64,000 nt of DNA from a virus (Duplodnaviria; Caudoviricetes). The notes beneath the pieces are model-generated. The model had not been told where the DNA came from. It made no database searches and saw only the letters and a program-made list of their open reading frames with translations. This document shows positions 31,075 through 55,600 of the stretch, in pieces (the first letter of the stretch is position 1; each line of letters begins with the position of its first letter). The stretch covers positions 64,001-128,000 of the IMG/VR virus record IMGVR_UViG_3300031992_000021; one strand, 5' to 3'. Both the position numbers and the translations under genes were made by a program.

Positions 31075-31614
31075 TCAGTGCAGCTGAGCTTTGATCTGCT
31101 CAAGGCTCTTCGTGTGCTCGTTCGCCTTGTTGCGGTTCGAGCTGGCCATTCCATGAAGCGCGGCAGAAAGCCCAAGGCTTCCAAGTCCGAGAATCCCGCC
31201 CTTCAACGCAAGTCTTTTTCCCTGGAGCTTAGGGGCGACTTTGGGACGAGGAACGATCGCAGAGAAACGAGGTTCGGTAGCGGTCAAGGCACCAGTAGGC
31301 TCCATCTTCACAAGACTACGAGTTGGAAGTCCTGCGTACGGCTTTCCCGGAGCGTAGACATGTTTCACGCCGGCAGGAGCGATTGACGGCCCCTTGTCGA
31401 GCATCTGCTTGACGCCTTTCAGCGTCATGGCGCCGCCTGCTGCTCCTCCTCCGACACCGACCATCTTGCCCCAGCCGGACAGGCTGTCGGCAGATTCGGC
31501 ACGGCTCTTGGCGTAGTCGCCATGAGCCTTGGCCTGTCCTTCTAGGAAGGCCTTCTGCTCCTCGCTGGACTGGGCAATCTTTTCGAGCGCCCTGATCCTG
31601 TCTTCGTTTGTCAT
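31075..31614 (-). CDS. Gly-rich internal head protein (paralog 2)
   Basis: Begins MTNEDRIRALEKIA; two Gly-rich hydrophobic segments. Confidence 0.65.
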   Translation of the reverse strand: MTNEDRIRALEKIAQSSEEQKAFLEGQAKAHGDYAKSRAESADSLSGWGKMVGVGGGAAGGAMTLKGVKQMLDKGPSIAPAGVKHVYAPGKPYAGLPTRSLVKMEPTGALTATEPRFSAIVPRPKVAPKLQGKRLALKGGILGLGSLGLSAALHGMASSNRNKANEHTKSLEQIKAQLH

Positions 31615-31616: not shown

Positions 31617-32066
31617 TTACCTCAACTTTCCTTTTATTCCGTTGAAATAGTTCACCCAGTTCTCGGTGGCCTTTGCCTTTTCTCCGACCTGGGCCGCCTC
31701 GGCGCTTGTGGCATGATGCTTGTCATACATCTTCTTGCCTCCGTACATAAGTCCTGCGCCAACAAGTCCTGCAATCCCGGCCTTGCCGGCTATCCTCATC
31801 CTGCCAACCCCGGCAGGAGGCCGCGCAAGACCGACCAGGCCCTTCGCGGCATATCCACCACCGGCCGCGCCAAGGCCCATGCCTGCGATGCCGATTGTCT
31901 TCTGCTGGTTTGCCTTGTCCTGCAAGGCCTTCTGCTGGCCACGCAAAGCCTGGCTATGAGCGGCAACCACGTCCGACGCCTCGTCGTTCGTGATTCGCTC
32001 AGACCCGGCCCATCCGTTGTAGCCTGCAATCTTCTCGAGTGACCTGATCCTGTCTTCGTTTGTCAT
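31617..32066 (-). CDS. Gly-rich internal head protein (paralog 1)
   Basis: Begins MTNEDRIRSLEKIA; glycine zippers. Confidence 0.65.
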   Translation of the reverse strand: MTNEDRIRSLEKIAGYNGWAGSERITNDEASDVVAAHSQALRGQQKALQDKANQQKTIGIAGMGLGAAGGGYAAKGLVGLARPPAGVGRMRIAGKAGIAGLVGAGLMYGGKKMYDKHHATSAEAAQVGEKAKATENWVNYFNGIKGKLR

Positions 32067-32078: not shown

Positions 32079-34625
32079 TTACTGCCTTTTCACCAAATCC
32101 TGAGCCGCGGAAACGAACACCACGTCGTCCTCGTTCAGAAAGCCACCAGACTTTCCGTCCATGACCGCGCACAGTGCGGCGATCTTGTACATGGCATACT
32201 TTTTGGCAAGCTTGTTCGCAACGGCCTGATCGACCGTTTCCGCAGTCTTCTCCGAGTTCGAGAACGAAGGTTCGCTTCCTGAAGCCACAACCTCCAGGAT
32301 CCTGGTAACGGCATCGACGGTTCCGAATCCCATCGCCGCGGCAGACTTGGACATCGACTCCATCAGACCGAACGGAACAGGCCTCGACAGCATCCCTGCC
32401 GCCGCATCGAACCTCGAGCAGTTGCAGAACTCGGCGCACGAAGAAGCGTCTACCGCTTCTCTGATTACCGCGGAAGCCGCTTTTTCGACCGCAGGAAGGT
32501 ACTTTTCGACGACATTGAAGTCTGGCCCGAAGGCATACTTGAAGAACGACGGGGCGTCCATCACGATGCCGGCGTCCCCAAGGGCGGCAAACGCGCACGA
32601 CGGATCCAGTTCCCGCAGAGACATGAGCACGGAGTCGTCAAGACGTGCGCCGGCGAGCTTCCTGAGCTCGAACGTGTAGCAATCCCTGCCGGCAGGCTTC
32701 GTCTCGCCAGACAGCCAGGATTCGCACTTTGAGTAGGCATCGGCGAGCTTCCTCATGATGTCGAACTTGCGCTTGGCGGAATCGGACTCGATGGCTATGT
32801 CGTCCGGAAGAGTGTACCCCTCTATCTCCGCCTGCTTGACGGAGCTGTTTATCGTGAGATCGTCAGGCATTGCCGAGGCGACCTTGAGGTTCCAGGCTAT
32901 GCGGTCGGCAGGACGACCGACGAAGGAGATGTCAAACCACCTTGGCTGGTCGTTGAACGTGCCGATCTGCGTTCCGTCCTCGGCTATCTTGCCGAGATTC
33001 CACTTGATGTGCTCGCACTCGCTCTTGTCTCCGGGCTTTTCGCGTATGGCGTTGCAAACGGAGCAACGGTCGTTAGGAACCGTGCAGTTGTGGACAGCAA
33101 GTCCAAACACCGTGTATGATTCATCATCATCTACACTGATGTTGTAGACCTTTGTGCTTTTTTTCACAGTCTTTACTTCAGACACCGGAACAAAAAGGTA
33201 TCCTCCGGACTTGAACGTACGCATCTTTGAAAGTCCGCATACGGATATCTCCTTTGCCTTGCTGATGTCAGAAAACAGATCGGAGTTTTCGTTGCTGACA
33301 GAAACAACGTACTCTACAGGGTCTTTCGACCTTATGGAACCACGCTTCTCGCCATGCTTTATGACGGAACACGACGATGGAACACCAACAGAAGCAAGTA
33401 ACACCTGTAAATCGTTGGCAAGCGTCTTGGAGCTTATGCTCCAGTGCATACCACTATTGTCCTGCCATCCGTCTCCGTTGAACCAAGCGGCTGCAAAATT
33501 GAACTTTTCCTCTATGCTTCCAGTCCTCACTGACATAGGAATGCGCTTGTTCTCGCATCTCTTACCGCAAGATTTCTCTATGTCATTGCGTATGGAAGTT
33601 CCGTAACACCTCAACACGACGCATTTATCAGGGGAAAGTCGATGAGGCTTCTTGGAAACTGAAGTCCAGTTGGCCAGCTTTTCGATCTCGTCCACGAAGC
33701 AATCGTTCACATTGCACGTAATCTGGGTGCATCCTGCGGAAAGACTTCCTTCAGCCATGTAGTATCCGTACAATCTGGCAGTCTGGATTCCTATTCCACC
33801 GCATGAATTTTCCCACATCGGTACGCACATGTAGTGCTTGTCGGTGAGATCCCCAGCTGGAATCCACTTGAGATACTTGTGAAGTTCTTCACGATGGCGC
33901 CGGCGCCACTTCTTTCCGGGATGGTCTACACGGTCTTTTCTGTATGCACGCGGAATGTCGTCGAAAGACGCGGCAAAAACCGAATGGTTCGGAGTGATTT
34001 CGAGCGTACGATTACCCCATGAGATGAACGAGACCTCGCGATACTCGTCTACATCACGAGACATTGTAGCATTCACACGCTTCCACTTTCCAAGATGCGT
34101 AAGAACCGTATCTCCAACCTTTATTTCCTCGATAGGACGATATCCGTCTATAGAAAGAATTGGAGTGCCGGCACGTACGCAAGCCATGCTGAACGGCACC
34201 TCGCCGGTCTTCTCGAGTCGTTCGAGATGGTCGTGGGCCTTCTCGTTGTCCGCCCAGATGTACAGTTCGATGCGGTGCATCTGCGGATTGTAGGCGGCCG
34301 CCTTGATCTGCCCGATGGCCTTTTTCGGATCCTTGTTCCGGTGATGCTGAAACACGTGCCCGTGCTTTACGAAGGTGTCGTAGTACTTCTGGCAGGCCTC
34401 TTTCGAGAAGAGGTCTCCGTTGCGGTTCATGGGATAAGCCTCGGAGTCTCCGAGGGCAACGAGGTGGATGCCGGTCATGCCCTTGGGTGGCTTCAGGGCG
34501 TCGTAGTCCATCTTGAAGATGGTAGACGCCTGCTTTCCGAGTTCGGAAGCAGACTTGACGATCTCGCCGCCAACTCCTACCGTGGAGCTGATGTCAGAGG
34601 AATATGTGACCTTGATCATCGACAT
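32079..34625 (-). CDS. Prohead maturation protease (HK97/assemblin-like) with intein
   Basis: NRNGDLF, VFQHH (His), PFSMAC (Ser) and FDISFVGRPAD motifs; intein at residues 149-513. Confidence 0.85.
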   Translation of the reverse strand: MSMIKVTYSSDISSTVGVGGEIVKSASELGKQASTIFKMDYDALKPPKGMTGIHLVALGDSEAYPMNRNGDLFSKEACQKYYDTFVKHGHVFQHHRNKDPKKAIGQIKAAAYNPQMHRIELYIWADNEKAHDHLERLEKTGEVPFSMACVRAGTPILSIDGYRPIEEIKVGDTVLTHLGKWKRVNATMSRDVDEYREVSFISWGNRTLEITPNHSVFAASFDDIPRAYRKDRVDHPGKKWRRRHREELHKYLKWIPAGDLTDKHYMCVPMWENSCGGIGIQTARLYGYYMAEGSLSAGCTQITCNVNDCFVDEIEKLANWTSVSKKPHRLSPDKCVVLRCYGTSIRNDIEKSCGKRCENKRIPMSVRTGSIEEKFNFAAAWFNGDGWQDNSGMHWSISSKTLANDLQVLLASVGVPSSCSVIKHGEKRGSIRSKDPVEYVVSVSNENSDLFSDISKAKEISVCGLSKMRTFKSGGYLFVPVSEVKTVKKSTKVYNISVDDDESYTVFGLAVHNCTVPNDRCSVCNAIREKPGDKSECEHIKWNLGKIAEDGTQIGTFNDQPRWFDISFVGRPADRIAWNLKVASAMPDDLTINSSVKQAEIEGYTLPDDIAIESDSAKRKFDIMRKLADAYSKCESWLSGETKPAGRDCYTFELRKLAGARLDDSVLMSLRELDPSCAFAALGDAGIVMDAPSFFKYAFGPDFNVVEKYLPAVEKAASAVIREAVDASSCAEFCNCSRFDAAAGMLSRPVPFGLMESMSKSAAAMGFGTVDAVTRILEVVASGSEPSFSNSEKTAETVDQAVANKLAKKYAMYKIAALCAVMDGKSGGFLNEDDVVFVSAAQDLVKRQ
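33087..34181 (-). mobile_element. Intein with LAGLIDADG homing endonuclease (365 aa)
   Basis: Starts CVRAGTPI; block B ITPNHSVF; LYGYYMAEGS and FAAAWFNGDG endonuclease motifs; ends VYNISV...AVHN followed by +1 Cys; AT-richer than the host gene. Confidence 0.92.
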
Positions 34626-37455: not shown

Positions 37456-38532
37456 TCAGTTGGCGGGGCCGTAAACCGAACTTACGGTGTTGGTCGGAGA
37501 TGCGTACTGCTCCCAAGAGGGAATTTCAGGACTGCTCCCCTTCCTCGCGGCCTCAAGCTCCTGTCTCGATTTCCACCAGTCCTTTGCGGCGTCGACAGCC
37601 TGCGGGCCTCCATACATGTGCCATCCGAGGGCATAGGACGGAACCTTGGAAGCCGCCCCTACCGTCCTTGGCGCCATCTTGCCGATCCTTGTGGCATTCG
37701 CCATCCTGCCTAAAGCTCCAACGCCTTTGGACAGGGCACCAATGCTCTTCACTCCGCCGGCGAGATTGAGTGCCATCTCCGAATATCCGGCGATGGTGTC
37801 CCCTGTCTGGAGATCGGCAATGCGCGGGTCGTTTGCCAGCGCCTCTCCGCGGCTCTGGAGATCCTCCATCCTCTTTACGAGCTCAGGATACCTTGGATCG
37901 CTCTCGGATATGTTACCGTCACCTACGTCCCTCTGAAAAGCCTTAAGGTCTGAATTGAACCTTTCGTGCTCATCAGCGAAGTCCTTTCCGTATGTTCTGG
38001 CCAGATATCCTGGACGTTCCGAATCTACGCGGCTCGTCGCGTAGTCCCTCCACGACCCAAGCGGGGTGAACCTATCCTGGAATTTGCGTACATTGTTCCC
38101 GGCATTCTCGGAAAACATGTCTACGACGCCAGGAACGAACTCGTTTGCCACATTTGAAAGGCTCTGTTCAAGCCTCGCATCGGCGTACGGAGCTTCCCTC
38201 CATCCGACCTTTGCGCCGGTCGAAATCCCCTTTCCTATGGACTTCAACGAATCCTTGAAACGTCCCCAATCGGTGAATGCCTTCCAGCCATGGTTCCTGT
38301 CAGCCTCGTTTGCGCCTGCGAAAGCACCTCCCAAAGCGCCAGGAACCGTCATGGCCGCTCTGGTGACATACTCATCAACCTCTGGAAACCCCCTGCTTGC
38401 AGAGTTGATGAACGCCTTGGCTCCCCTTGCGATGTTGTCCGCACCTTTTCGGTATACCTCAGGCTTGTATACAGGGGGCACGATGAGCTGCGCCTGCTTT
38501 ACAAGACGGTCTATCTCAGAAAGTACGCCCAT
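37456..38532 (-). CDS. Internal virion protein candidate
   Basis: N-terminal LVKQAQ and Gly-rich segments; abuts the RNAP gene. Confidence 0.55.
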   Translation of the reverse strand: MGVLSEIDRLVKQAQLIVPPVYKPEVYRKGADNIARGAKAFINSASRGFPEVDEYVTRAAMTVPGALGGAFAGANEADRNHGWKAFTDWGRFKDSLKSIGKGISTGAKVGWREAPYADARLEQSLSNVANEFVPGVVDMFSENAGNNVRKFQDRFTPLGSWRDYATSRVDSERPGYLARTYGKDFADEHERFNSDLKAFQRDVGDGNISESDPRYPELVKRMEDLQSRGEALANDPRIADLQTGDTIAGYSEMALNLAGGVKSIGALSKGVGALGRMANATRIGKMAPRTVGAASKVPSYALGWHMYGGPQAVDAAKDWWKSRQELEAARKGSSPEIPSWEQYASPTNTVSSVYGPAN

Positions 38533-41500
38533 TCAAGCCTCCTTTATCTCGATTGGATCGTTAGGACCGATCTCTCCGTTGCGGTATGCCGCCACGGCCT
38601 CTGCCTTGCTGTTGAAGTACCTCGTAGGCTTCCTGGTCCTGCCCCTTGTAAGAGCCCACAACCCTGAAATCTGCTCCTTCTCTGGCTTGTAGCGCATCGA
38701 CTTGAGATCGGTAAGGCTGAACAGGTTCTTGGACGGAAGCATCTTCTCCATGGCCTGGTTCGCGGCCTTCATGCTCGCCGGCACGTGGATGTTGACGGTA
38801 TCTCCGTCGTGGTCCATGTTGAATCCGCTGTCGATGAGCGGACAGACGTGGATCGAACGCCCCTTGACGATATGAGGCTTGAACGCCATGATATTGAACT
38901 TGTGCCACGTAGGCGCACGGTCCATGATAACCGGCCTTTCCTCCATTGCGTCGTCAAGGATGTGCCTTGCCGTGGCGTTCTTCTCCTCGATCATCTTCTT
39001 CGCTGTAAGAGGGGAATACCCTCTCTGGATGAGCTTGCGCTCAACGTGCGGCTTGTACATTTCCCAGGCCATTTCCTCAGGGATGCCGATCTGGTCCATG
39101 TCGAGGTTCTTGTCCGGGATGGTGACGGAACGACCGACGTTGTCCTGCGTCTTGGATATCACCTTGGACTGGTACATGCCGAACTTTGGTATCGTGCCGA
39201 TGACCTGGCGTATGGCCCCTTTCAGGTTCTTCGCCTGGCCTTCTGCCGTGATCGGATCACCAAGTCCGTAGGCCGCCTTTACGGCGCCGTACACCGCAAG
39301 GCGCTCGTCGGCGAGCGCAGATGCCGGAAGCTCCTTGGCAAGTGCCTCGTAGTTGCTCTTCATCTCGATGAGATCCTTGTAGAGCTCGTTCATGTCTGGA
39401 ACGAGCGCCACATCTCCCATTTTGGCGACGGGGCGGAACATGGGAGGAAGGACCGGGACCCTTGTGATCATCCAGTCTTCAGGCTTCTTCCCCATCTCCT
39501 TCGCGGCCTTCAGGTATCCGAGCACCTTTATGGCGTTGTCCCGCTGCGATCCCCTGCGGTTCTTTATCTCTGCCCTGGCGCGTTCGATGGAGTCGTCGAT
39601 GTCTATCTTGGAGAGAGCATCCTTGATGGCGTCTCCGCCGGTCTTGCCGTTGAGTTCCTCGCGCCCGGAGAGAACCGCCTCCATCTTCTTGGCCGTAAGA
39701 CCGAGTACTCGGCGTACAGGCTCCTCCATCATCGGGTTTGGAACCGCCTCCGGAAGCACGATCATGCTCCAGCGGTTGCCTCCCATGCCGCCGGTCTTTC
39801 CGAGATCGAACATTCCTCCCTTCACAGGCTGGAAATCGGAGTCGACCATCTGCGAGTTCTCAAGGACGCGCCCCTGTGCGAGCTCGTCGATATCCGCATC
39901 GGTCTGAGGCATTATCGACGTGACGTCGCCCTTCTCGACGACGTTCACGCCGCCGGCCTTTAGCGTATTGAGGAACTTCTTGTAGATGAACGGCACTCCA
40001 GGCTCTTCGACCGGCAACCCAAGACGGTAGCGGCGCCAGAACTCGTCGTTCATCTGGCCGCGGGTCGTCATCGAGTCCTTGATCACCTCTGTTGCTCCGT
40101 GCGACAGGAGGGCGAGGTTGTCGAATCCGGATATGCGCTTCGCTCCGTCTACGCCTCCCTTGGCCGGCTGCTCGTCCTGCGTATAGGCTCCGTCAACGCC
40201 GCGGGCGGAGTATTTCTTCTCGGCGAGGTGATGAAAAGCCTTTACGTACGAATATCCATCGCCTACATTGCGGATTGTACGTCCTGTCTGAGGATCGAAA
40301 ACATCTGCAGTCTCCTTAACGCCGGCGTCGGCCATCTGCTTCTCTGTCCACGCAAGCCATCCCTCAGGAGGAGGAAGCTGCGGTAGACGGATCTGCTTTC
40401 CGGTCTTCTTGGCGACCTTGGCGAGATTCATGAGCATCACCTGCCCAGGAGCGACACGGGAAAGGAACCCCATCGGGTTCATGAGCATGTCGTAAGGCTC
40501 GTTTGTGGTGGCGTCCCGCGGCATCTTGTCCATGGGAAGTATTCCGCCGACAACACCCTTGAGCCCCTGTTCCGGCGACAGCTTGTCACCAACCTTCACA
40601 GGCGGCTCGCTCTTCACGATGACCTTTACTCCATGTGCGCCGGCCACGACGTCGGTGACTACTCCAGGCCAGTCGTGCTCCCATTTCTGGGACTTGTCGG
40701 TAAGCGCATTCTTGAGAACGCTCGACAGCTTCCCGAGCTGGGCATCTTCGGCCGAGAGCATCTTAGGCCCGATCGCCAGAATCATGGGATCGTCTCGATG
40801 GAGGACCGTCCCAACCTTCACGACGCCATTTTCGTCTATAGTGTCGGACTGGGCCTTCGTGTAGGCTTTCGGGAACGCGGCAAGATACTTGTTCCGTGCC
40901 ACCTGAACGCCCTCTTTCGTGTCCTGCTCGAACCCGTAGAGCCTCGAAGTGGCGAGCTTCTTGGCCGCATCTTCGGATATCACGATTGCGTCTTCGTAGG
41001 AGGAAACGCCTGCAGGAGCGGGAAGGACCGCAACCTTTAGGTTACGCCCCATGTTCATCGCGCCGGTCTTGGCGTCGGTGAAGTTCGAGTTTGCGAGAAT
41101 CCCGCCCTCCTGAACCTCGTCTCCTTTCTTGACCTGCGAAAAGTACGTTATGCCGGTCATCCGGTTGAACGGAAGCCCTTGTACAAGACTGGACGTATGA
41201 GTCTGTCCGTCCTTGCCGCGAATGACGATCTCCTTGTCGTTGGCCTTGATGACAGTGCCGGCGAACGGAGCCGTAAGACATCCCACCTTGCGCCCGTAGA
41301 ACTCGCTGAAAGTAGCCTTTCCGTCGTCCATGAGGCTGTCCACCAGCGGTACTTCGCCCTCCTTCTGCGGAAGGTACTGCTCCCAGAACTTGGACATGTA
41401 GAACTGGCGCCCTGCCTGAACCGTTGAAGGCATCGGAGTCATGTTGATGCCGGCGGAAACAGTATTTCCGAATCCGGGAACCATGTAGTCGACCTCGTCA

Positions 41501-43890
41501 CGATCAACCATGGTGGGAATACCCTTGCGCATGGCGTACAGACGAGGAGCCTTCGGATCCTGTCCGGGGAAAGCGACCGTGTGCGATGCCGCGTCGTCAA
41601 GGGCCACGTATCTGGTCTTGCCGGTCCGAAGATCCATCATCTTGTTGTAGAGCCTGTTGTCGCTGCCCTTCATGGTGCCGAGCGCCGCCCGGACGTCGAT
41701 GCCGATCCCGAAAGATTCAGGGCCGCTGATGAAGTCGACAAACCCAAGATAGTCTCCCTGAACGTTGCGTGCCTCCGGAGTAACAAGATCCGGAGAAGAT
41801 ATGCCGCCCTCGCCCAAACGCGTGATGCGCGACTGCTGGGTGAGGATTGACAGGGGGTTAGCCTCCTCGCCCGGCATGGCGAGGCCGGAACCCGAAAGGA
41901 AAGTGTCGAGATACGGAGCAAGAGCGTTGCGCCCGATTCTGGCAAGGTTCTTGTCCCGCTTTGCCCTGAACAGCATGGACTTGGTGAGCCTGCCGGCGTC
42001 CTTGTCGATGCGCTCGCGCATCATGTCCTCGATGCCGTAGAACTTGCTGAAGCGAGGGTTGTCGCGTTCGTCAGGATCTTCGGCGCCGCGGTTGATGTTG
42101 AGGAGCTTCTGGGCCGCCCTGAGGATCACCTGTCCGGTAACGCCATTTACATTCTCAAGTCCGAGCGTGCGTACGACAACATCCGGATCGAGTCCGCTTC
42201 CTGAAAGCGCCTCGCTCACGAACTTTGCCTTGTCCGCAGGAGAAAGGCTCATGTCGGCCTTGCGTCCGGCATACCTGGCGTAGACCTTGTCGAGGGCACG
42301 CGGATCCATCTTTCCGACGTTTACGGAAGTCACCTCGTTGCCCCAAGACTTCCTGATGTCCTCGTCAGACACGCCGATCGCCCTGAGCACGGGATATAGA
42401 GGCACATGGCCCTGCCCGACGCTCATGTTGAGGGCGCCGGTCTCGCGGTCGAGACCTATCCTGAATCCAAGACCGTTCGCGACGTTGAACTGGGATTCGA
42501 GTTCGCCGTTCTGCTTGCGGCGAACGTACACGCCAGGGGAGAGGCGTGCCTGAGAAATGACCGTATACTCGTTGCCGTTGTTGATGATCGTCCCGCGGTC
42601 GGTATAGTACGGAACCCTTATGATCCCGTCGCGTCGCTCGTCGAGAACCTTACCAGTCTTCTTGTCTGTAAGGCGCCATGTGCCGGCTATGGAACACCCA
42701 AGCCTGCGGTTGTTGAGAAGGGCCTGCTTCTGCTGCTCGAGCGTGTAGGACGTAGGCCCCTCGTACTTCACGTCGCGAAGTTCGAGCCTTACGTCGTCGT
42801 CCTCGACCGGGAAACGGTTCTTGACCGCCTCCAGGACGTTGTCCATGATGGCAGTGCGGGTAGCCGGAGCATCGATGAACGAGCGGAGCTTGACGCCGGC
42901 CGGAACTCCTTCCATGGGATCGTCCTGCTTGGCCTCTGCCGTCTTCTCCTGTTTCTTTGCGAAAAACTTTCTGACCTTCTCGCGCTGCTCTTCCTCAAGC
43001 TTGACAAGGAGCTTTTCCGCATCCTCTTCGGAATCAGCCAGAGGCAACGGCCAGTCTCCATGCCCGCCGTACATTGCCAGTCCAAGCGTCCTGTTCTTTT
43101 CTCCGTCATGCCCTGTATGATCAAGCCAGCAACACCAGTAGTCACGGCCATTATCGCGCTTGCCACCGTAGTACCATCCAACTATCTTCCCTATCTTCGG
43201 TCCTCTCACGCAAGGTTCGACGACCCACTTCCCCTTAGGGAACTTCTTCTTCATCTCCTCTGGGACAGGATGGTCGGCATCATCCTCCGGAGCAGCTTCC
43301 GCAGCCTTGACCTTTATGGTATCGACTATCGGCTTTACGGACGCGTACTCGTGAAAAGGCTTGGTCTTGCGGGTGGAAGAATCGATCCACTTGCGGAACT
43401 CGGCCTTCGTGACCGGCGTGATCCAGCCAAGTCCGCCCCAACCCTTCTGGTAGCAGGCAAGGTACGTCTTCTTGGCGTCCTCGATGCTGTCGAATCCGTA
43501 CATGACCTTGTGCTCGTCGAACTTCTTGGTCTTGGGATCGATCTGGTCGATGACGAACACGGCTCCCTTCTCAGGATGGTCGGAAAGGTAGATGTCGACA
43601 GGATCCCCGTCGACGCTCTCCGTGCCGCGGATGTCGCCGTAGTCGCAGGCGAGCATGTTGCGCCACTTCGTTCCGTCAGGAGACGTCCCGGAACGGTACG
43701 AGCCCTTCGGATTCTCGATGGAAATGCGGAAGCCGTCAAGGTTGAGATGTACCTTGCGGTAGTTTCCGACGCGCTTCTGCCCGTCGGTAGGATCCTTTGC
43801 GGCATCCGGAGCGCCTGCGTTCACAGCCCTCTGCGCAGGCGAAGACGCCCGCTTGCCGAACATCTGCTGTATGGTTTCGGTAAGGGTCAT
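38533..43890 (-). CDS. Fused multisubunit-type RNA polymerase (beta + N-terminal half of beta') with N-terminal InPase-like domain
   Basis: beta motifs (NGNEYTVISQARLSPGV, NPLS..TQQSRITRLGEGGI, YEDAIVISE, GDKLSPEQGLKGVV, NPMGFLSR, QPAKGG); beta' motifs (VPVLPPMFRP, GRSV, DRAPTWHK, FNMDHDGD at 38800-38820); N-terminal ISIENPKGS..DYG..DGDPVD..DEHKVMYGF. Confidence 0.92.
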   Translation of the reverse strand: MTLTETIQQMFGKRASSPAQRAVNAGAPDAAKDPTDGQKRVGNYRKVHLNLDGFRISIENPKGSYRSGTSPDGTKWRNMLACDYGDIRGTESVDGDPVDIYLSDHPEKGAVFVIDQIDPKTKKFDEHKVMYGFDSIEDAKKTYLACYQKGWGGLGWITPVTKAEFRKWIDSSTRKTKPFHEYASVKPIVDTIKVKAAEAAPEDDADHPVPEEMKKKFPKGKWVVEPCVRGPKIGKIVGWYYGGKRDNGRDYWCCWLDHTGHDGEKNRTLGLAMYGGHGDWPLPLADSEEDAEKLLVKLEEEQREKVRKFFAKKQEKTAEAKQDDPMEGVPAGVKLRSFIDAPATRTAIMDNVLEAVKNRFPVEDDDVRLELRDVKYEGPTSYTLEQQKQALLNNRRLGCSIAGTWRLTDKKTGKVLDERRDGIIRVPYYTDRGTIINNGNEYTVISQARLSPGVYVRRKQNGELESQFNVANGLGFRIGLDRETGALNMSVGQGHVPLYPVLRAIGVSDEDIRKSWGNEVTSVNVGKMDPRALDKVYARYAGRKADMSLSPADKAKFVSEALSGSGLDPDVVVRTLGLENVNGVTGQVILRAAQKLLNINRGAEDPDERDNPRFSKFYGIEDMMRERIDKDAGRLTKSMLFRAKRDKNLARIGRNALAPYLDTFLSGSGLAMPGEEANPLSILTQQSRITRLGEGGISSPDLVTPEARNVQGDYLGFVDFISGPESFGIGIDVRAALGTMKGSDNRLYNKMMDLRTGKTRYVALDDAASHTVAFPGQDPKAPRLYAMRKGIPTMVDRDEVDYMVPGFGNTVSAGINMTPMPSTVQAGRQFYMSKFWEQYLPQKEGEVPLVDSLMDDGKATFSEFYGRKVGCLTAPFAGTVIKANDKEIVIRGKDGQTHTSSLVQGLPFNRMTGITYFSQVKKGDEVQEGGILANSNFTDAKTGAMNMGRNLKVAVLPAPAGVSSYEDAIVISEDAAKKLATSRLYGFEQDTKEGVQVARNKYLAAFPKAYTKAQSDTIDENGVVKVGTVLHRDDPMILAIGPKMLSAEDAQLGKLSSVLKNALTDKSQKWEHDWPGVVTDVVAGAHGVKVIVKSEPPVKVGDKLSPEQGLKGVVGGILPMDKMPRDATTNEPYDMLMNPMGFLSRVAPGQVMLMNLAKVAKKTGKQIRLPQLPPPEGWLAWTEKQMADAGVKETADVFDPQTGRTIRNVGDGYSYVKAFHHLAEKKYSARGVDGAYTQDEQPAKGGVDGAKRISGFDNLALLSHGATEVIKDSMTTRGQMNDEFWRRYRLGLPVEEPGVPFIYKKFLNTLKAGGVNVVEKGDVTSIMPQTDADIDELAQGRVLENSQMVDSDFQPVKGGMFDLGKTGGMGGNRWSMIVLPEAVPNPMMEEPVRRVLGLTAKKMEAVLSGREELNGKTGGDAIKDALSKIDIDDSIERARAEIKNRRGSQRDNAIKVLGYLKAAKEMGKKPEDWMITRVPVLPPMFRPVAKMGDVALVPDMNELYKDLIEMKSNYEALAKELPASALADERLAVYGAVKAAYGLGDPITAEGQAKNLKGAIRQVIGTIPKFGMYQSKVISKTQDNVGRSVTIPDKNLDMDQIGIPEEMAWEMYKPHVERKLIQRGYSPLTAKKMIEEKNATARHILDDAMEERPVIMDRAPTWHKFNIMAFKPHIVKGRSIHVCPLIDSGFNMDHDGDTVNIHVPASMKAANQAMEKMLPSKNLFSLTDLKSMRYKPEKEQISGLWALTRGRTRKPTRYFNSKAEAVAAYRNGEIGPNDPIEIKEA

Positions 43891-43901
43891 CGCGTTGCCT
43901 T

Positions 43902-45443
43902 TCAGGCCTTTGCCGGCTGATCTGTCTGTGCGGCAGGGAACATTTTCCTGATCCTGTCCTCAACCATGCCCTGCCCAAAGCTTGTATTCTTGGCAAGTGA
44001 AGACAGAATGTTGAACAGCCACCCGTCCTTCTTGAAGGTGCGTCCTATGTAGTCGTCAATCATCTGATTGCCATAGCTCTTGAACGCATCGTCATCGCGG
44101 AACTTCCCGATCATCATGTCCTGGAACCTTCCGCTAGACATGAGCTTGTCCTTGAAAGCCGGGGAATTATAGGAGTTCGACGGAGTCTTCCACCACGTCT
44201 TGAACTTGTCCCACGCCCCCATGCCTTTAGATGCGGTAGACTTGATAGCTCCGATCGCGGAGTTCACGGCGTCATCGTCTCCAGATACGTAAGCCTTTGT
44301 AAGGTTCAGGAGATTTCCGCTGTTCTCCGGCATTCCGAGCGCATCGACGGCGCCATTGACGATATCATCCTGCGACGCGCCATTGAACCCCAGAAATGCG
44401 TCCTTCTCGATTCCGGAACGGTCTATGCGCTCCGCCCCGACGATCATCGCCCTCTTAACCAAGATTGCTGACAGGGCCGTTTCGGCCGATATTGCGATCT
44501 CCTTGTCCTCCGAGGTCTTGTACAGTATCAGAGGCTCGTCCGGATAGCTGTCCGACTGAAGGGACTTCTTCTTGGCATCGGCCTTGCGCTTCTCCATGAT
44601 CTTGTTCACTATCACAGCCGAAAGCGCGGCCGGAAGCATGAATGCCCCGCCAAGCGTCGTGAGCGCGGTGTATGCCATGTTGTCGCCTGCGGCCTGAGCC
44701 GACTTCTCTCCGCCCTCAAGGAGCTTTACGTACTCCTCGCGTGCATTCTCGACATCTTCGTTGGAACGCGACTTCCTGACGTTGTTCACAGCCTCCACGA
44801 GCTTTGCCGCCAGATACACGCTCGCAAGACCTCCGGCCGTAAATGCGAGCGGCCTTACGACGCCAGCGCTGAACATCGCCTTCCCCGTCCTGTCCGGATG
44901 GGTTATCATGTCAAGGAAGCCCTCGGCGGACTTCTCCTCATGAGCTACGGCTACAGGGTCTGTAGGACTTGCGAACCTGCCGTTCACATCCCTCAAGACC
45001 GCACCTTCTCCATCCTTCTTGTCGGACTTCCCGCATTCCTTCGTTGCTTTGTCCTCTGCTTTCTTGACAGAGGCCGCCTTTCCGAAGAAATCAACCTTCC
45101 TTCCGTTCACGATGGACTTCTTTTTGGCCTCGATGTCTTCTGCCGACATTTCCGCGGAGGGAGTGACTGCGCCTGGCTTGGACGAAGCCGCAAACGTCTT
45201 GGCGAAGTCATCCGGAGTGGGAAGCCCGCTCATGAACGACTCTTTCTTGACCGGAACGATTATGACGTTCCTCGCCTTTCCGAGATCGGTCAGGTCCTTC
45301 TTGTCTTTCTTCGCCTTGAGCCTGCTCATTACGACCCCTGCGCCGGCGGCAAGAGTGCCTGCGCCAAGTGCCGCCTTGAGATACTTCATGAAGATTGCCT
45401 TGTCCGCATCGGACATCGCCTTTTTTTCTACTGGATTGCTCAT
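43902..45443 (-). CDS. Internal/ejection-like virion protein (start MSNPVEKKA)
   Basis: GGAGG RBS; hydrophobic Gly/Ala helices separated by EKxA motifs. Confidence 0.6.
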   Translation of the reverse strand: MSNPVEKKAMSDADKAIFMKYLKAALGAGTLAAGAGVVMSRLKAKKDKKDLTDLGKARNVIIVPVKKESFMSGLPTPDDFAKTFAASSKPGAVTPSAEMSAEDIEAKKKSIVNGRKVDFFGKAASVKKAEDKATKECGKSDKKDGEGAVLRDVNGRFASPTDPVAVAHEEKSAEGFLDMITHPDRTGKAMFSAGVVRPLAFTAGGLASVYLAAKLVEAVNNVRKSRSNEDVENAREEYVKLLEGGEKSAQAAGDNMAYTALTTLGGAFMLPAALSAVIVNKIMEKRKADAKKKSLQSDSYPDEPLILYKTSEDKEIAISAETALSAILVKRAMIVGAERIDRSGIEKDAFLGFNGASQDDIVNGAVDALGMPENSGNLLNLTKAYVSGDDDAVNSAIGAIKSTASKGMGAWDKFKTWWKTPSNSYNSPAFKDKLMSSGRFQDMMIGKFRDDDAFKSYGNQMIDDYIGRTFKKDGWLFNILSSLAKNTSFGQGMVEDRIRKMFPAAQTDQPAKA

Positions 45444-45460
45444 TCTACACGCCTCCATTG

Positions 45461-50866: not shown

Positions 50867-50941
50867 TGGATGAGGAGGTGTGAGTCGAACACACATGGGG
50901 CGATTCAAAGCCGCCCGTACTTTCCGTTGTACTACTCCTCA
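50867..50941 (-). tRNA. tRNA-Gln(TTG)
   Basis: Cloverleaf, loop CTTTGAA, encoded CCA. Confidence 0.85.
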
Positions 50942-50945
50942 ATGA

Positions 50946-51019
50946 TGGTCGGAGATGAGTGAGTCGAACACTCGCCTTCTGGGCCCAAGCCAGGCGTGCT
51001 GCCGTTATACCAATCTCCG
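50946..51019 (-). tRNA. tRNA-Pro(TGG)
   Basis: CGGAGAT acceptor, loop CTTGGGC, CCA. Confidence 0.85.
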
Positions 51020-51020
51020 A

Positions 51021-51096
51021 TGGAGCTGAGTAATGGAGTCGAACCATCAACCTGCTGCTTACAAGGCAGCCGCACTGCCTATTGTGCTAACTCAGC
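51021..51096 (-). tRNA. tRNA-Thr(TGT)
   Basis: Loop CTTGTAA, CCA. Confidence 0.9.
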
Positions 51097-51097
51097 A

Positions 51098-51173
51098 TGG
51101 TACTCCGAGAGGGGATCGAACCCTCAACCCGCAGATTAAGAATCTGCTGCTCTACCAGTTGAGCTACCGGAGC
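51098..51173 (-). tRNA. tRNA-Lys(CTT)
   Basis: Loop TTCTTAA, CCA. Confidence 0.9.
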
Positions 51174-51180
51174 ACTTAAA

Positions 51181-51256
<76 letters not shown>

Positions 51257-51258
51257 AA

Positions 51259-51337: not shown

Positions 51338-51362
51338 ATGACTTGACTAAGTATACCATAAA

Positions 51363-53845: not shown

Positions 53846-55600
53846 TTAGACCTCCTTTGGATCGAGCCTGTCGTCGATCGGCGCCTCGTCGTTGGTAAGG
53901 CCTCCGCCGAACGCGCTCTCGGGAATCATGTCGTCCACGGACAGACCGAGAAGCTTCATGGCCACCATGCTCGCAAAGCAGAGCGCATGGCAGAAGTCGT
54001 CCGGATGCGACGCGTTCCTCAGATACAGCCTGTGCGTCATGCCGCCGACCTCGGTCGTTGTCTCGTAGGGCGACAGCAGGTCGTCGGTGTAGATGTCGAA
54101 CCCGTCCTTCGGGAAGAAGATCCTTCCGTTCCTGATAGCTAAAAAAAGGGTGTCCAACGCCATGACCTTGTCGATGGTCCAGCACTGCACGACGTTCGTC
54201 CTGCCTCTGGACTGGTTCTTTCCGAAGAGCTTCAGCTGCCTAGTGTACTGCATCTGTACGATCGGGAGCCCGAACCGCTTTGCCAGTATCTGGTTCTTGT
54301 CGAGACCCATGCCGGCGTCGGCAGCAACGGCGACGACGTTGTAGAACCGGCATATCTTGGCGATGTCGGTCATCTGCTCGTCCGGATCGTACCCGCGGTA
54401 TCTCCTGGCCCACAGCGTGTCTATGCGGCCGTTCGGACGTATTCCTATGACAGTTATGACCGTGAACGAGCTAAGTTCTGCCCCACCCCAGTCGATGCCG
54501 GCAACGATGAAGCTGTAGCGTCCGGGATTGGTCTTGACCTCCTCCTGAAGGCGCTTGGTAGACGGAAGCACGCTCTGCTGCTTGATGTGGTGCCTCGTGA
54601 GCAGCCTCTGACCGACTGAGTAGGATATTCCGAGGTTTTCCTGGATGAACGTGGCGAGAGTCCCTGTCGTGAGCTTCCTGAGGAGCTTCTGCCAGTTGTT
54701 CATGTCGTCCACGATCGCAGGACAGACAACCTGGGGGATGTGGTATCCCCTGAAGCTGTACATCCTGTCCTCGTAGCCTCCTACCCACTGCCCGTTCCTG
54801 ACGTTTATGCGCTTTCCGCAGTGAAGGCAGTGGAGACCGTCGGCGCCGATCATCTTGAGGACGCCTCCGTCGAGGTTCGGTATGGCCCACGTTCCGCACC
54901 CCTCGCACTTCATGACCCACTCGCACATTGAGCTCTTCTGCCACAGGGTCTCGATGTAGTTTTCGGTAACTTTGGCCGTTCCGGTGAACCTGCGGCATCC
55001 GTACTTGGACGATGTGAGCGATTCGGAGATGATGGGGACCGTCTCGTCCGTCTGGTCCTGGATCTCGTCGAAGTCGATCATGTCCGCCATGATACCGCGG
55101 GCGCGGTCGGCCGAAGTCTTGGCGTAGGTGAGCTGTATGCCGGCGCCGTTTGCGAACGTCTGGTGCCCAGTGGCACTTATGATCTTCGCATCGGACAGGA
55201 CGCCGGCCATGCTCTTGGACTGGAGCTTCTGCGCCAAGGGGCAAGACCGAATGGCCTCAGTCAGGTAAAGGTCGCTGTAGCGGCGCGTCTGTTCCTGCAG
55301 CGGAGCTACGTACAGCAGCTGGAACTGCGGGATGCAGAGCGGTATGAACACCTCGCTCCTCGACAGGGTCATCGACTTGCCAAGCTGACGGCCAGACATT
55401 ATGATGAGGTCGGGATAGAGCTTCTTCTCGAAAAGTACGTCGAACTGCGGCCTGTCCTTCAGGCTGAAAGGCTCACCCTTCACCCTGAACAGGTGCGGCA
55501 GGAGCGCGGCGTTGTTCGTGGCGTTTATCTGGGCCGCTATCTCGCTGTTCTTGACGAGCGACGGAACCTTCTTGATGATCTCTCGGTCTATCGACGCCAT
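53846..55600 (-). CDS. terL: Terminase large subunit
   Basis: Walker A SGRQLGKS, Walker B IDFDEIQD, FTGT motif, CxxC/CxxC zinc site, nuclease GIDWG and DDFCHA. Confidence 0.92.
   Translation of the reverse strand: MASIDREIIKKVPSLVKNSEIAAQINATNNAALLPHLFRVKGEPFSLKDRPQFDVLFEKKLYPDLIIMSGRQLGKSMTLSRSEVFIPLCIPQFQLLYVAPLQEQTRRYSDLYLTEAIRSCPLAQKLQSKSMAGVLSDAKIISATGHQTFANGAGIQLTYAKTSADRARGIMADMIDFDEIQDQTDETVPIISESLTSSKYGCRRFTGTAKVTENYIETLWQKSSMCEWVMKCEGCGTWAIPNLDGGVLKMIGADGLHCLHCGKRINVRNGQWVGGYEDRMYSFRGYHIPQVVCPAIVDDMNNWQKLLRKLTTGTLATFIQENLGISYSVGQRLLTRHHIKQQSVLPSTKRLQEEVKTNPGRYSFIVAGIDWGGAELSSFTVITVIGIRPNGRIDTLWARRYRGYDPDEQMTDIAKICRFYNVVAVAADAGMGLDKNQILAKRFGLPIVQMQYTRQLKLFGKNQSRGRTNVVQCWTIDKVMALDTLFLAIRNGRIFFPKDGFDIYTDDLLSPYETTTEVGGMTHRLYLRNASHPDDFCHALCFASMVAMKLLGLSVDDMIPESAFGGGLTNDEAPIDDRLDPKEV

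What the first reader, a model, noticed from the sequence alone, without database searches (positions are those of the whole stretch)
38533..43890. Single-chain beta-beta' RNA polymerase fused to an InPase-like domain inside the head module
Seen: one 1785-aa ORF contains an N-terminal domain (about aa 35-180) with the InPase signature of phage/plasmid polyvalent proteins (IENPKGS, DYG, DGDPVD, DEHKV), a short unknown domain, a compact beta subunit, and then without a break the N-half of beta'. The junction reads PGVPFIYKKFLNTLKAGGVNV...IMPQTDADI, near 39.9 kb. The beta' zinc ribbon is missing and the catalytic motif is NMDHDGD instead of NADFDGD. The protein stops shortly after the catalytic barrel, so bridge helix and trigger loop must be encoded outside the window. 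The motifs look closer to bacterial RpoB/RpoC than to phiKZ-type subunits. Inference: a virion-packaged RNAP, since it sits among internal head genes. The pyrophosphatase could remove PPi to drive transcription. K-x-A sites at the domain borders (FGKRA, KVKAA, QEKTA) suggest a polyprotein cut during head maturation.
Basis: partly seen in the sequence, partly recalled or inferred. Interest (0 to 1): 0.8.

Follow-up and report, generated by a model that had tools for sequence, protein, structure and literature searches.

The report
Phage RNA polymerase carrying pyrophosphatase cargo
An uncultured ~163-kb phage makes the main chain of its own bacterial-type RNA polymerase as one 1785-residue protein that also carries a pyrophosphatase-like enzyme and a swappable small domain, separated by short motifs that look like cut sites of the head-maturation protease, so the enzyme probably rides into the host inside the virus particle.

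Summary
Window 38533-43890 (-) is one 1785-aa ORF. It contains an N-terminal leader, an InPase domain (PF18823, E 2.6e-50), a small SH3-like domain, all of RpoB, and the N-half of RpoC. The Zn ribbon is absent and the catalytic motif reads NMDHDGD.

It is not an assembly artefact. More than 90 independent metagenomic protein clusters share the architecture. The missing beta' C-half (629 aa, Rpb1_5) and a full sigma70-family factor lie elsewhere in the same genome. No alpha, omega or second RNAP set was found.

The core is the Salmonella phage Arash Gp206/Gp216 type, whose subunits were the most abundant proteins in virion mass spectrometry. This scan has met that two-chain, sigma-paired family before on other DNA.

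Two things are specific here. First, the InPase sits at the N-terminus and is followed by a hypervariable cassette of 40-720 aa, which holds LysM plus lysozyme in some relatives. Second, every module border carries an (E/V/G)-K-x-A motif. That motif is about 9-fold enriched in the genome. It lies within the first 50 residues of 8-11 of 13 neighbouring head-block proteins (p about 1e-8 to 1e-10).

Virion packaging, proteolytic release and the substrate of the InPase are inferred, not shown. Verdict: a new variant of a known kind (virion RNAP / polyvalent protein).

The parts
38533..43890 (-). Whole gene: 1785-aa leader-InPase-SH3-like-beta-beta'N fusion protein (P0001)
   Evidence: One open frame. 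Pfam domains. Full-length homologues in more than 90 clusters.
43786..43890 (-). N-terminal leader, aa 1-35: a short helix followed by a disordered stretch. Candidate head-targeting or propeptide segment.
   Evidence: 63-100% identical across the InPase-bearing relatives in the set. AF2 gives helix 3-12, then pLDDT below 50 for aa 10-45. A similar leader followed by EKxAQ opens the InPase-less relatives and the neighbouring head-block proteins.
43846..43857 (-). Motif site 1: G12-K13-R14-A15
   Evidence: K13 and A15 are invariant in 26 aligned relatives. The site lies in a disordered segment.
43384..43782 (-). InPase domain (family I pyrophosphatase-like), aa 37-169
   Evidence: PF18823 E 2.6e-50. 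E59, D94, D96, D99, D125, E126 and K128 are invariant. Matches the C-terminal domain of the Pa193 portal, 9B41_L residues 637-762, E 2e-27. The top Foldseek hits of the model are family I PPases, but weakly (E 7.8e-3).
43300..43311 (-). Motif site 2: V194-K195-A196-A197 (within IKVKAAE)
   Evidence: Recurs as IKVKAAE or VNEKAA directly after the InPase in relatives. Disordered at aa 190-203.
42955..43278 (-). Middle domain, aa 205-312: a small SH3/Tudor-like beta-barrel plus a long helix. It occupies the hypervariable cassette slot.
   Evidence: AF2 pLDDT about 78-88. Best structural matches reach only Z 4.3-4.9 (EF-P domain I, UvrD/PcrA Tudor, CarD RID), which is below the noise level. In relatives this slot ranges from about 40 to 720 aa and sometimes holds LysM plus Phage_lysozyme2.
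42937..42948 (-). Motif site 3: E315-K316-T317-A318, immediately before the RNAP core
   Evidence: K316 and A318 are invariant. InPase-less relatives and Arash Gp206 start within about 25 residues of this point. Disordered at aa 313-324.
39925..42918 (-). Beta (RpoB) module, aa ~325-1322
   Evidence: Rpb2_6 E 2e-32. Aligns to bacterial beta 470-1179, E 6e-48. Contains GDK (1101) and GLKG (1109) in the DPBB, and NPLS...RLGEGG at 678-696.
38536..39924 (-). Beta' N-half, aa 1323-1785: clamp helices and the catalytic double-psi barrel, without a Zn ribbon
   Evidence: Aligns to bacterial beta' residues ~166-540, E 1e-52. No Cys in aa 872-1682.
38800..38820 (-). Catalytic motif NMDHDGD (aa 1691-1697). 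All three Asp are retained.
   Evidence: Read directly from the sequence. The D, D, G and D positions are near-invariant in the close-relative alignment and invariant in the 23 distant ones.
32079..34625 (-). Probable prohead (S78-like) protease, 848 aa, interrupted by an intein at about aa 150-513. Candidate enzyme for the K-x-A sites.
   Evidence: Hint and LAGLIDADG domains. The exteins match Arash gp222 and D69_0270, which hit phrog_18299 'head maturation protease' at E 2e-6 and 7e-7. An intein-less homologue is L016:20959-22419; its nearest named Atlas clusters are Peptidase_S78, score 0.90. This is a lead, not proof.
43902..45458 (-). Upstream neighbour, 518 aa, unknown function. It has EKKA at residues 11-14 and two internal EKSA[EQ] sites.
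   Evidence: Its 607-aa homologue in L016 has one EKTAQ site, at residue 261, despite 36% identity.
37456..38532 (-). Downstream neighbour, 358 aa. Its start codon abuts the RNAP stop codon. The N-terminus carries a leader with VKQAQ at residue 11.
53846..55600 (-). Large terminase, marking the packaging end of the same minus-strand late gene block
   Evidence: phrog_675 E 3e-65; GpA_ATPase and Terminase_6C.

Best explanation
Shown:
- The gene encodes the large chain of a two-chain, bacterial-type phage RNA polymerase. All of beta is fused to the N-half of beta', up to just past the catalytic barrel.
- The other half of beta' (629 aa, with the bridge-helix/trigger-loop domain) and a full-length sigma70-family factor are encoded elsewhere in the same 163-kb genome.
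- The genome has no alpha, no omega and no second polymerase set.
- In this sub-clade the chain carries an N-terminal add-on: a ~35-residue leader, an InPase (family I pyrophosphatase-like) domain with its acidic active-site residues intact, and a cassette slot. Here the slot holds a small SH3-like barrel.

Inferred:
- The protein is made late together with the head proteins. It shares their N-terminal leader-plus-(E/V/G)-K-x-A signature, is loaded into the prohead, and is cut at the three K-x-A linkers by the S78-like prohead protease. The cuts would release the leader, the InPase and the cassette domain from the polymerase.
- On infection the contents are ejected with the DNA. The polymerase, with beta'C and the phage sigma, starts early transcription independently of the host enzyme.
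- The InPase acts as a co-delivered effector. It either clears PPi or, about equally likely, hydrolyses a nucleotide-type signal.
For: Architecture and its generality:
- Pfam domains and direct alignments.
- More than 90 clusters have the same InPase-RNAP layout.
- At least 150 clusters (50% identity level) span the beta/beta' junction in one stretch, all at E below 1e-189.

Partners in the genome:
- beta'C at G000:C1:49160-51049, E 6e-73 to Arash Gp216, with Rpb1_5.
- Sigma70 regions 1.2, 2, 3 and 4 at G000:C1:27636-29237.
- The sigma-binding clamp-helix region is retained.
- No alpha or omega and only one RNAP set.

Packaging:
- Arash Gp206 gave the most spectra and Gp216 the fifth most in virion MS; sigma Gp10 was also detected (PMC10585845).
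- The gene lies in the minus-strand block between the terminase and homologues of MS-verified Arash structural proteins.
- InPase domains are typical of virion-packaged polyvalent proteins and of portal C-termini (PMC5512222; 9B41).
- Some relatives carry LysM plus a phage lysozyme in the cassette.

Processing:
- EK.A[QE] occurs 14 times against 1.6 +/- 1.2 in shuffles, and 10 of the 14 lie in the head block.
- EK.A falls within the first 50 aa in 8 of 13 block ORFs against 3 of 171 elsewhere, p 7e-9. For [EVG]K.A the counts are 11 of 13 against 8 of 171, p 4e-11.
- The motif recurs at module borders in most sampled relatives, including the InPase-less ones.
- It also brackets the SET, DUF5661 and 2H-SAK cargo in a 41%-identical family member.
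- All three sites fall in AF2-disordered linkers.
- A protease candidate lies 4 kb downstream.
Against: - No experimental data exist for this phage or its close clade. Packaging rests on a 30%-identical homologue, and that virion preparation yielded 116 proteins, so carry-over is possible.
- Site 1 (GKRA) and site 2 (VKAA) fit only the relaxed motif.
- Motif sites in some neighbours are not conserved in L016: the 478-aa homologue has none.
- 20 of the 120 relatives that carry the core landmark have no [EV]K.A[QEA] hit before the core.
- Two of the 13 block proteins are paralogues, which inflates the statistic.
- A conserved linker could instead serve as a recombination joint for cassette exchange.
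- beta'C and sigma lack the leader motif, so they would have to be packaged by piggy-backing.
- The protease assignment rests on weak hits (E about 1e-6; Atlas 0.90).
- The InPase part of the model has low confidence.
Confidence: 0.55

Rival explanations
1. Carrier-of-effectors reading. The InPase has nothing to do with transcription chemistry. It is an injected counter-defence or host-takeover enzyme that hydrolyses a nucleotide-type signal or alarmone, and the polymerase is simply the vehicle that takes it into the head and then into the cell. This shares the packaging and cleavage steps of the best explanation and differs only in the InPase substrate.
For: - Distant members of the same RNAP family carry 2H phosphoesterases (2_5_RNA_ligase2 E 3e-10; Acb1 E 2e-4; 2H-SAK E 5e-5), a SET domain and DUF5661 in equivalent slots.
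- The cassette next to the InPase is swapped freely among near-identical polymerases, as expected of arms-race cargo.
- Iyer et al. 2017 proposed nucleotide-derived substrates for polyvalent InPases.
- The same domain sits on portals of phages that have no RNAP of their own.
Against: - The family I PPase signature D-G-D-P-V-D-I and the acidic residues are those of genuine PPi hydrolases.
- No substrate can be inferred from sequence alone.
- The InPase itself, unlike the cassette, is 70-100% conserved across the InPase-bearing relatives, which suits a housekeeping role.
Confidence: 0.3
2. Non-virion reading. The protein is not packaged. It is the phage's only RNAP, made and used in the cytoplasm for middle and late genes, while host RNAP (possibly with the phage sigma) reads the early genes. 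The InPase works in cis, uncleaved, and the K-x-A stretches are only flexible linkers or recombination joints.
For: - There is only one RNAP set in the genome, unlike phiKZ-type phages, which have a separate virion enzyme.
- beta'C and sigma are encoded far away and lack the leader motif.
- The Arash authors themselves note that abundant infection-stage enzymes may contaminate virion preparations.
Against: - The gene sits in the late structural block and shares the N-terminal leader/motif with its neighbours at p about 1e-8 to 1e-10.
- Gp206 was the single most abundant virion protein in Arash, above the major capsid protein.
- Relatives fuse a LysM-lysozyme to the same chain, which makes little sense for a cytoplasmic polymerase.
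- InPase occurs elsewhere on portals and on packaged polyvalent proteins.
Confidence: 0.15
3. Structural-anchor reading. The InPase-like domain is catalytically irrelevant here and serves as a head-interior docking or DNA-contact module that recruits the polymerase into the prohead, as its position on portal C-termini might suggest.
For: - The same domain ends the portal of Pa193-like phages, facing the capsid interior, and is unresolved in cryo-EM.
- It is constant in the clade while the neighbouring cassette varies.
Against: - All metal-binding acidic residues are invariant.
- InPase-less sister clades have the same leader and motif and presumably package without it.
Confidence: 0.1
4. Artefact reading. 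The fusion is a chimeric assembly or a mis-called frame that joins separate genes.
For: None was found.
Against: - The frame is continuous, with the N-terminus, junctions and C-terminus conserved in more than 90 independently assembled clusters from four sources.
- The same gene context is seen in L016.
- Arash and the Vibrio phage isolates have the same beta-beta'N fusion in finished genomes.
Confidence: 0.01

Closest known systems
Salmonella phage Arash Gp206 + Gp216 (+ sigma Gp10/Gp196), and the homologues in Vibrio phages D69/D148/D181
   Same: - The same re-partitioned bacterial-type RNAP: beta fused to beta'N in one ~1500-aa chain, with a separate ~600-aa beta'C and phage sigma factor(s).
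- aa 352-1782 of the query align end to end with Gp206 at 30% identity.
- beta'C matches Gp216 at E 6e-73.
- Both Arash chains are abundant in the virion proteome.
   Different: - Arash and the Vibrio phages have no N-terminal add-on. The core starts about 25 residues before the alignment.
- In Arash the gene follows the portal. Here the portal homologue lies 60 kb away, at G000 42200-44008.
- The Arash paper annotates Gp206 simply as the beta subunit and does not describe the fusion.
Polyvalent proteins of phages and conjugative elements, including the N4 virion RNAP gp50 (Iyer et al. 2017, PMC5512222)
   Same: - Several unrelated enzymatic modules on one virion-packaged polypeptide.
- An InPase domain of the same Pfam family.
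- Variable architectures between close relatives.
- A polymerase fused to lysozyme or effector domains for early action after injection.
   Different: - The polymerase module here is a two-barrel, multisubunit-type beta/beta' enzyme that needs a second chain. It is not the T7-like single-subunit N4 enzyme.
- The 2017 survey reports only N4-like RNAP modules in polyvalent proteins.
- No MPTase domain is present here. The borders carry a K-x-A motif shared with head proteins instead.
phiKZ/AR9-type virion multisubunit RNAPs (Chimalliviridae and relatives)
   Same: - A phage-encoded two-barrel RNAP without alpha or omega.
- beta' is split after the catalytic barrel.
- The enzyme is packaged for early transcription.
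   Different: - Those enzymes have beta and beta' each cut into 2-3 polypeptides, no sigma70 homologue, and two paralogous sets.
- Here beta and beta'N are fused, a full sigma70 is encoded, and there is only one set.
- Sequence similarity is marginal (E 2e-4, against 1e-40 to bacterial beta').
Portal-InPase fusions (Pseudomonas phage Pa193 gp19, PDB 9B41; BcepF1.124)
   Same: The same InPase domain (E 2e-27 to residues 637-762 of 9B41_L), attached to a head-interior virion protein.
   Different: There it is the C-terminal appendage of the portal and is unresolved in the map. Here it is the N-terminal module of a polymerase, flanked by candidate cleavage motifs.
Natural rpoB-rpoC fusions of Helicobacter/Wolbachia and the split rpoC1/rpoC2 of cyanobacteria (own knowledge)
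   Same: Head-to-tail beta-beta' fusion and a split of beta' downstream of the active site are both tolerated by bacterial RNAP.
   Different: - The split here is at about E. coli residue 540. The cyanobacterial gamma subunit continues about 75 residues further (8h3v_E).
- Fusion and split occur together here, in a virus, with the Zn ribbon lost.

Membership tests
InPase (Pfam PF18823; polyvalent-protein type of family I inorganic pyrophosphatase) | Profile match above the curated cut-off over the whole domain | tested here: met
   170.2 bits against 26.8, E 2.6e-50, profile positions 2-134 of 135.
InPase (Pfam PF18823; polyvalent-protein type of family I inorganic pyrophosphatase) | Conserved acidic metal-binding residues (D-x-D-x-x-D signature and partners) | tested here: met
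   D94-G-D-P-V-D99 aligns with E. coli PPase residues 65-70. E59, D94, D96, D99, D125, E126 and K128 are invariant in 26 relatives.
InPase (Pfam PF18823; polyvalent-protein type of family I inorganic pyrophosphatase) | OB-fold PPase structure | tested here: inconclusive
   The AF2 model has low confidence in this part. The top Foldseek hits are family I PPases, but only at E 7.8e-3 and TM 0.19-0.33.
InPase (Pfam PF18823; polyvalent-protein type of family I inorganic pyrophosphatase) | Pyrophosphatase (or other phosphoanhydride hydrolase) activity | not testable with these tools
   Needs an enzyme assay. No member of PF18823 was found to have been assayed in the papers read.
Bacterial-type multisubunit RNAP, beta subunit | Rpb2 domain 6 / beta double-psi barrel with the two active-site lysines | tested here: met
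   PF00562 E 2e-32. GDK at 1101-1103 and GLKG at 1109-1112. Aligns to bacterial beta 470-1179.
Bacterial-type multisubunit RNAP, beta' subunit | Catalytic barrel with the Asp triad (NADFDGD) | tested here: met
   PF00623 E 2e-21. NMDHDGD at 1691-1697 keeps all three Asp.
Bacterial-type multisubunit RNAP, beta' subunit | N-terminal Cys4 zinc ribbon | tested here: not met
   No cysteine between aa 872 and 1682. A GKTGGMGGN loop stands in place of the ribbon.
Bacterial-type multisubunit RNAP, beta' subunit | Bridge helix and trigger loop on the same chain | tested here: not met
   The chain ends at about E. coli residue 540. Rpb1 domain 5 is on a separate 629-aa protein at G000:C1:49160-51049.
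Bacterial-type multisubunit RNAP holoenzyme | Alpha dimer and omega subunits | tested here: not met
   PF01000, PF01193 and PF01192 have no match at E <= 1 in the 92%-complete genome, while the controls were positive.
Arash-type two-chain, sigma-paired phage RNAP | beta-beta'N fusion chain, a separate beta'C chain, and a phage sigma70 homologue in one genome | tested here: met
   The fused junction is shared by at least 150 clusters at the 50% identity level.
Arash-type two-chain, sigma-paired phage RNAP | Presence in virions | not testable with these tools
   Known only for Arash, by MS. Inferred here from gene context and the leader motif.
Polyvalent proteins (Iyer et al. 2017) | Two or more unrelated effector/enzymatic domains on one polypeptide encoded among virion genes, with variable architecture among relatives | tested here: met
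   InPase, SH3-like domain and RNAP here. InPase + LysM + lysozyme + RNAP in P0044. Cassette of 40-720 aa.
Polyvalent proteins (Iyer et al. 2017) | Transfer into the host with the DNA | not testable with these tools
   Requires infection experiments.
phiKZ-type virion RNAP | beta and beta' each split into several polypeptides, no sigma homologue, and paralogous vRNAP and nvRNAP sets | tested here: not met
   The chain is fused, a sigma70 is present and there is a single set. Similarity to Chimalliviridae beta' is only E 2e-4.
Prohead-protease substrates (head proteins processed at a shared motif) | A short shared motif, enriched in head proteins and located in exposed linkers or N-terminal propeptides | tested here: met
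   14 observed against 1.6 expected. 8-11 of 13 block proteins against 3-8 of 171 elsewhere. The sites lie in disordered linkers.
Prohead-protease substrates (head proteins processed at a shared motif) | Actual cleavage at the motif | not testable with these tools
   Needs N-terminal sequencing or semi-specific MS of virion proteins.

The most novel reading that the evidence does not exclude
This polymerase family may work as a modular delivery polyprotein. A sigma-dependent, bacterial-type RNAP would be loaded into the head through a head-protein leader. It would carry exchangeable effector cassettes (InPase, lysozyme, SET, 2H/Acb1-like phosphoesterases) punctuated by prohead-protease K-x-A sites. 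One maturation step would then produce both a ready-to-fire virion transcription machine and a set of free anti-host enzymes, all injected with the DNA. That would be a third, independent solution to virion-borne transcription, beside N4 and phiKZ. It would also be the first in which a two-barrel RNAP is a polyvalent protein.
Probability: 0.35. Interest if true: 0.8.

Novelty: new variant of a known kind. Interest (0 to 1): 0.62.

Why it matters
Current reviews describe phage multisubunit RNAPs as sigma-less, phiKZ-type enzymes, and they read phage sigma factors as hijackers of the host polymerase. This gene belongs to a very large, essentially undescribed phage lineage that pairs a re-cut bacterial-type core with its own sigma70.

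It also shows the core being used as a chassis for injected enzymes. If the K-x-A sites are protease sites, the specificity of a new prohead protease can be read from the sequence, and the boundaries of every cargo module can be predicted across hundreds of phages. The InPase-RNAP link additionally gives a direct way to test what polyvalent InPase domains do; no assay of one was found in the papers read.

In practical terms, a compact two-chain plus sigma RNAP with no alpha or omega is an attractive minimal system for studying assembly and transcription initiation. From the substitutions at the H526 and S531 positions it is probably rifampicin-insensitive (own inference from the sequence).

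Tried and rejected
- Assembly artefact: rejected on more than 90 independent clusters and on isolate genomes.
- The beta'-C half among the downstream window ORFs: the 848-aa ORF has no similarity to Arash Gp216. It turned out to be a protease-like gene containing an intein.
- The 518-aa upstream ORF as portal: it has no similarity to the Arash portal. The portal homologue is at G000 42200-44008.
- PHROGs and Pfam on ten neighbours: almost all came back blank.
- InPase in distant family members: a local HMM search over 148 representatives found none. That HMM was built from close relatives only, so divergent copies could have been missed.
- Function of the middle domain: the VIA-align best Z is 4.9, below the noise level, and the Atlas gave no usable hit. 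The resemblance to RNAP-binding Tudor domains (UvrD/PcrA, CarD) is a lead only.
- Literature: three searches for a description of a fused beta-beta'N, sigma-paired phage RNAP found nothing beyond the Arash paper. The paper on portal proteins and the stringent response (PMC13483052) is unrelated to InPase.


Full report
**1. The observation**

Window 38533-43890 on the minus strand is one uninterrupted ORF of 1785 codons. Pfam finds three domains:
- InPase (PF18823) at aa 37-169, 170 bits against a cut-off of 26.8, E 2.6e-50.
- RNA_pol_Rpb2_6 at aa 926-1245, E 2e-32.
- RNA_pol_Rpb1_2 at aa 1635-1715, E 2e-21.

The C-terminus of beta (FIYKKF...GGVNVVEKGD, aa 1301-1322) continues without a break into beta'-like sequence at about nt 39.92 kb. 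There is no cysteine between aa 872 and 1682, so the beta' Cys4 zinc ribbon is absent and a short Gly-rich loop replaces it. The catalytic motif reads NMDHDGD (aa 1691-1697) and keeps all three Asp. The chain ends 88 residues later, aligned to about E. coli beta' residue 540.

**2. Not an artefact, and a large family**

A whole-length search returned more than 90 protein clusters at 73-96% identity from ENA, Logan, JGI and NCBI assemblies. Their precomputed Pfam content is the same: InPase + Rpb2_6 + Rpb1_2. One relative, L016, was re-read and lies in the same gene context.

A profile-free scan of 1.8 billion cluster representatives used aa 900-1785. It listed at least 150 clusters (50% identity level) at E below 1e-189, with alignments that cross the beta/beta' junction. 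The beta-beta'N fusion is therefore the rule in a very large phage lineage.

The closest isolates are Salmonella phage Arash (Gp206, 1525 aa) and Vibrio phages D69/D148/D181. These align end to end with aa 352-1782 at 30-31% identity.

**3. The rest of the enzyme**

The window is G000:C1:64001-128000 of a 162,950-bp virus record estimated to be 92% complete.
- The missing beta' half is a 629-aa ORF at G000:C1:49160-51049. It matches Arash Gp216 at E 6e-73 and carries Rpb1 domain 5.
- The genome also encodes a 533-aa sigma70-family protein with regions 1.2, 2, 3 and 4, at G000:C1:27636-29237.
- The sigma-binding clamp-helix region of beta' is retained.
- No alpha or omega homologue was found, and there is no second RNAP set.

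Similarity is much stronger to bacterial subunits than to Chimalliviridae (phiKZ-like) subunits:
- PDB beta' E 1e-52 and beta E 6e-48.
- About 32-33% identity to bacterial beta' over 96% of the beta'N query.
- Only E 2e-4 over 44% of the query for Chimalliviridae subunits.

Reviews up to 2026 describe phage multisubunit RNAPs as lacking sigma, and they treat phage sigma factors as partners of the host core. This layout falls outside the published picture. The Arash paper lists the proteins but does not analyse them. Earlier agents of this scan reported the same two-chain, sigma-paired family on several other genomes. I re-derived each point here independently.

**4. What is special in this gene: the N-terminal add-on**

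I mapped segments of P0001 onto 121 relatives.
- The leader (aa 1-35) and the InPase (aa 36-185) are 70-100% conserved in the near clade, and the core is 77-97% conserved.
- The stretch between InPase and core is hypervariable in length (about 40 to 720 aa) and in content. In several relatives it holds LysM plus Phage_lysozyme2.
- Sister clades at 61-69% core identity, and 148 more distant representatives, have no InPase and at most about 160 extra N-terminal residues.

The InPase fusion is thus a recent, clade-specific acquisition on an old chassis.

Distant members carry other cargo inside beta. One has a 492-aa insert with SET, DUF5661 and 2H-SAK domains. Another has a 2H/Acb1-like phosphoesterase.

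The InPase keeps the family I signature D-G-D-P-V-D-I, aligned to E. coli PPase residues 65-70, together with invariant acidic partners. Its only solved-structure relative by sequence is the C-terminal appendage of the Pa193 portal (9B41_L residues 637-762, E 2e-27), which is disordered in the map.

An AF2 model of aa 1-351 has mean pLDDT 60 and gives:
- a short N-terminal helix;
- a poorly resolved InPase, whose best Foldseek hits are family I PPases at E 7.8e-3;
- a confident small beta-barrel plus long helix at aa 205-312;
- disordered linkers at aa 10-45, 190-203 and 313-351.

The barrel is SH3/Tudor-like. The best Z is 4.9, below the noise level, so no function follows from it.

**5. The K-x-A motif**

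Their Lys and Ala are invariant or nearly so in 26 relatives, and they sit in the three disordered linkers.

Comparative evidence:
- Sister clades without InPase (61-69% core identity), except one clade with very short N-termini, begin with a ~20-residue leader followed by E-K-x-A-Q just before the core.
- In many relatives with longer cassettes the motif recurs at module borders, up to four times. 20 of the 120 relatives that carry the core landmark have no hit before the core.
- In the 41%-identical P0174, the SET, DUF5661 and 2H-SAK modules inside beta are each bracketed by [EV]-K-x-A.

Statistics in this genome:
- EK.A[QE] occurs 14 times against 1.6 +/- 1.2 in per-protein shuffles. Ten of the 14 lie in the gene block around the polymerase.
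- Within the first 50 residues, EK.A is present in 8 of the 13 minus-strand ORFs at window 29.0-46.8 kb, against 3 of 171 elsewhere (Fisher p 7e-9).
- The relaxed [EVG]K.A is present in 11 of 13 against 8 of 171 (p 4e-11).

Homologues of proteins found in Arash virions lie in or next to the same gene region. About 4 kb downstream lies an 848-aa gene whose exteins match Arash gp222 and D69_0270. Those two hit the PHROG 'head maturation protease' at E about 1e-6. An intein-less homologue has Peptidase_S78 clusters as its nearest named Atlas neighbours, at score 0.90.

The simplest reading is that (E/V/G)-K-x-A is the recognition motif of the prohead protease, and that the polymerase is processed with the head proteins.

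Caveats:
- Two block proteins are paralogues.
- Some neighbour sites are not conserved in L016.
- Sites 1 and 2 fit only the relaxed motif.
- A conserved linker could also act as a recombination joint.

**6. Mechanism proposed**

Shown: the architecture, the partners, and the membership in the family.

Inferred, in order:
1. Late synthesis within the structural block.
2. Head incorporation through the shared leader. This is supported by the Arash virion MS, where Gp206 gave the most spectra, Gp216 the fifth most, and sigma Gp10 was also detected.
3. Cleavage at the three linkers, releasing the leader, InPase and cassette domain from an RNAP chain that would then start near aa 319.
4. Ejection with the DNA, followed by sigma-dependent early transcription that does not need the host core.
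5. InPase acting either on PPi or on a nucleotide-type signal. Both ideas are in Iyer et al. 2017. The phosphoesterase and SET cargo in distant relatives tilts me slightly toward an effector role.

beta'C and sigma lack the leader and would have to enter as part of an assembled complex.

**7. Comparison and verdict**

The core is a member of the Arash-type two-chain RNAP family. The add-on makes the protein a polyvalent protein in the sense of Iyer et al., who found only N4-type (T7-like) RNAP modules in such proteins. It is not a phiKZ-type enzyme: it is fused rather than fragmented, has a sigma, has a single set, and shows only marginal similarity.

I rate it a new variant of a known kind.

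Interest is moderate to high. The lineage is large and essentially undescribed in print. The motif gives testable cleavage predictions. The InPase-RNAP link offers a handle on an unassayed domain family.

Noticed in passing
window 32079-34625 (-): The probable prohead protease gene is interrupted by an intein of about 364 residues (Hint + LAGLIDADG, aa ~150-513). The homologue in L016 (20959-22419) lacks it. Many RNAP homologues in the family also carry inteins (PF14528, PF03161, PF14890).
   Followed up: partly
window 50867-53015 (-): A dense array of 20 tRNA genes by ARAGORN (including 5 Leu, 2 Gln and 2 Glu) lies between the terminase region and the head block.
   Followed up: partly
G000:C1:27636-29237 (-), outside the window (L007:9536-11137): A full-length sigma70-family factor of 533 aa with regions 1.2, 2, 3 and 4 and a ~280-aa N-terminal region that matches nothing. 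It is probably the initiation factor of the phage RNAP.
   Followed up: partly
G000:C1:18162-27158 (-), outside the window (L007:62-9058): A 2998-aa ORF with no Pfam match at E <= 0.01, directly downstream of the sigma gene.
   Followed up: no
P0174 aa 269-760 and P0199 aa 767-948 (metagenomic relatives, 41-42% identity): Distant members of the RNAP family carry effector-type domains inserted inside beta: SET + DUF5661 + 2H-SAK in one, and a 2',5'-RNA-ligase/Acb1-like 2H phosphoesterase in the other. In P0174 each module is bracketed by [EV]-K-x-A.
   Followed up: partly
window 31075-31614 (-) and 31617-32066 (-): Two adjacent paralogous small proteins (179 and 149 aa) share the N-terminus MTNEDRIR(A/S)LEKIA. 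It is the clearest copy of the leader-plus-motif signature. They may be scaffold-like or internal head proteins.
   Followed up: no
L008:17006-19165 (G000 54306-56465) and L008:114-1895: A 719-aa protein with a Stealth CR2-like region, and a 593-aa protein with YadA head repeats, lie in the fibre region upstream of the window.
   Followed up: no
window aa 678-696 of P0001 (nt ~41.8 kb): In the beta region equivalent to rifampicin cluster I, the E. coli H526 and S531 positions read Q and T. This hand alignment rests on my own knowledge and suggests natural rifampicin insensitivity.
   Followed up: no
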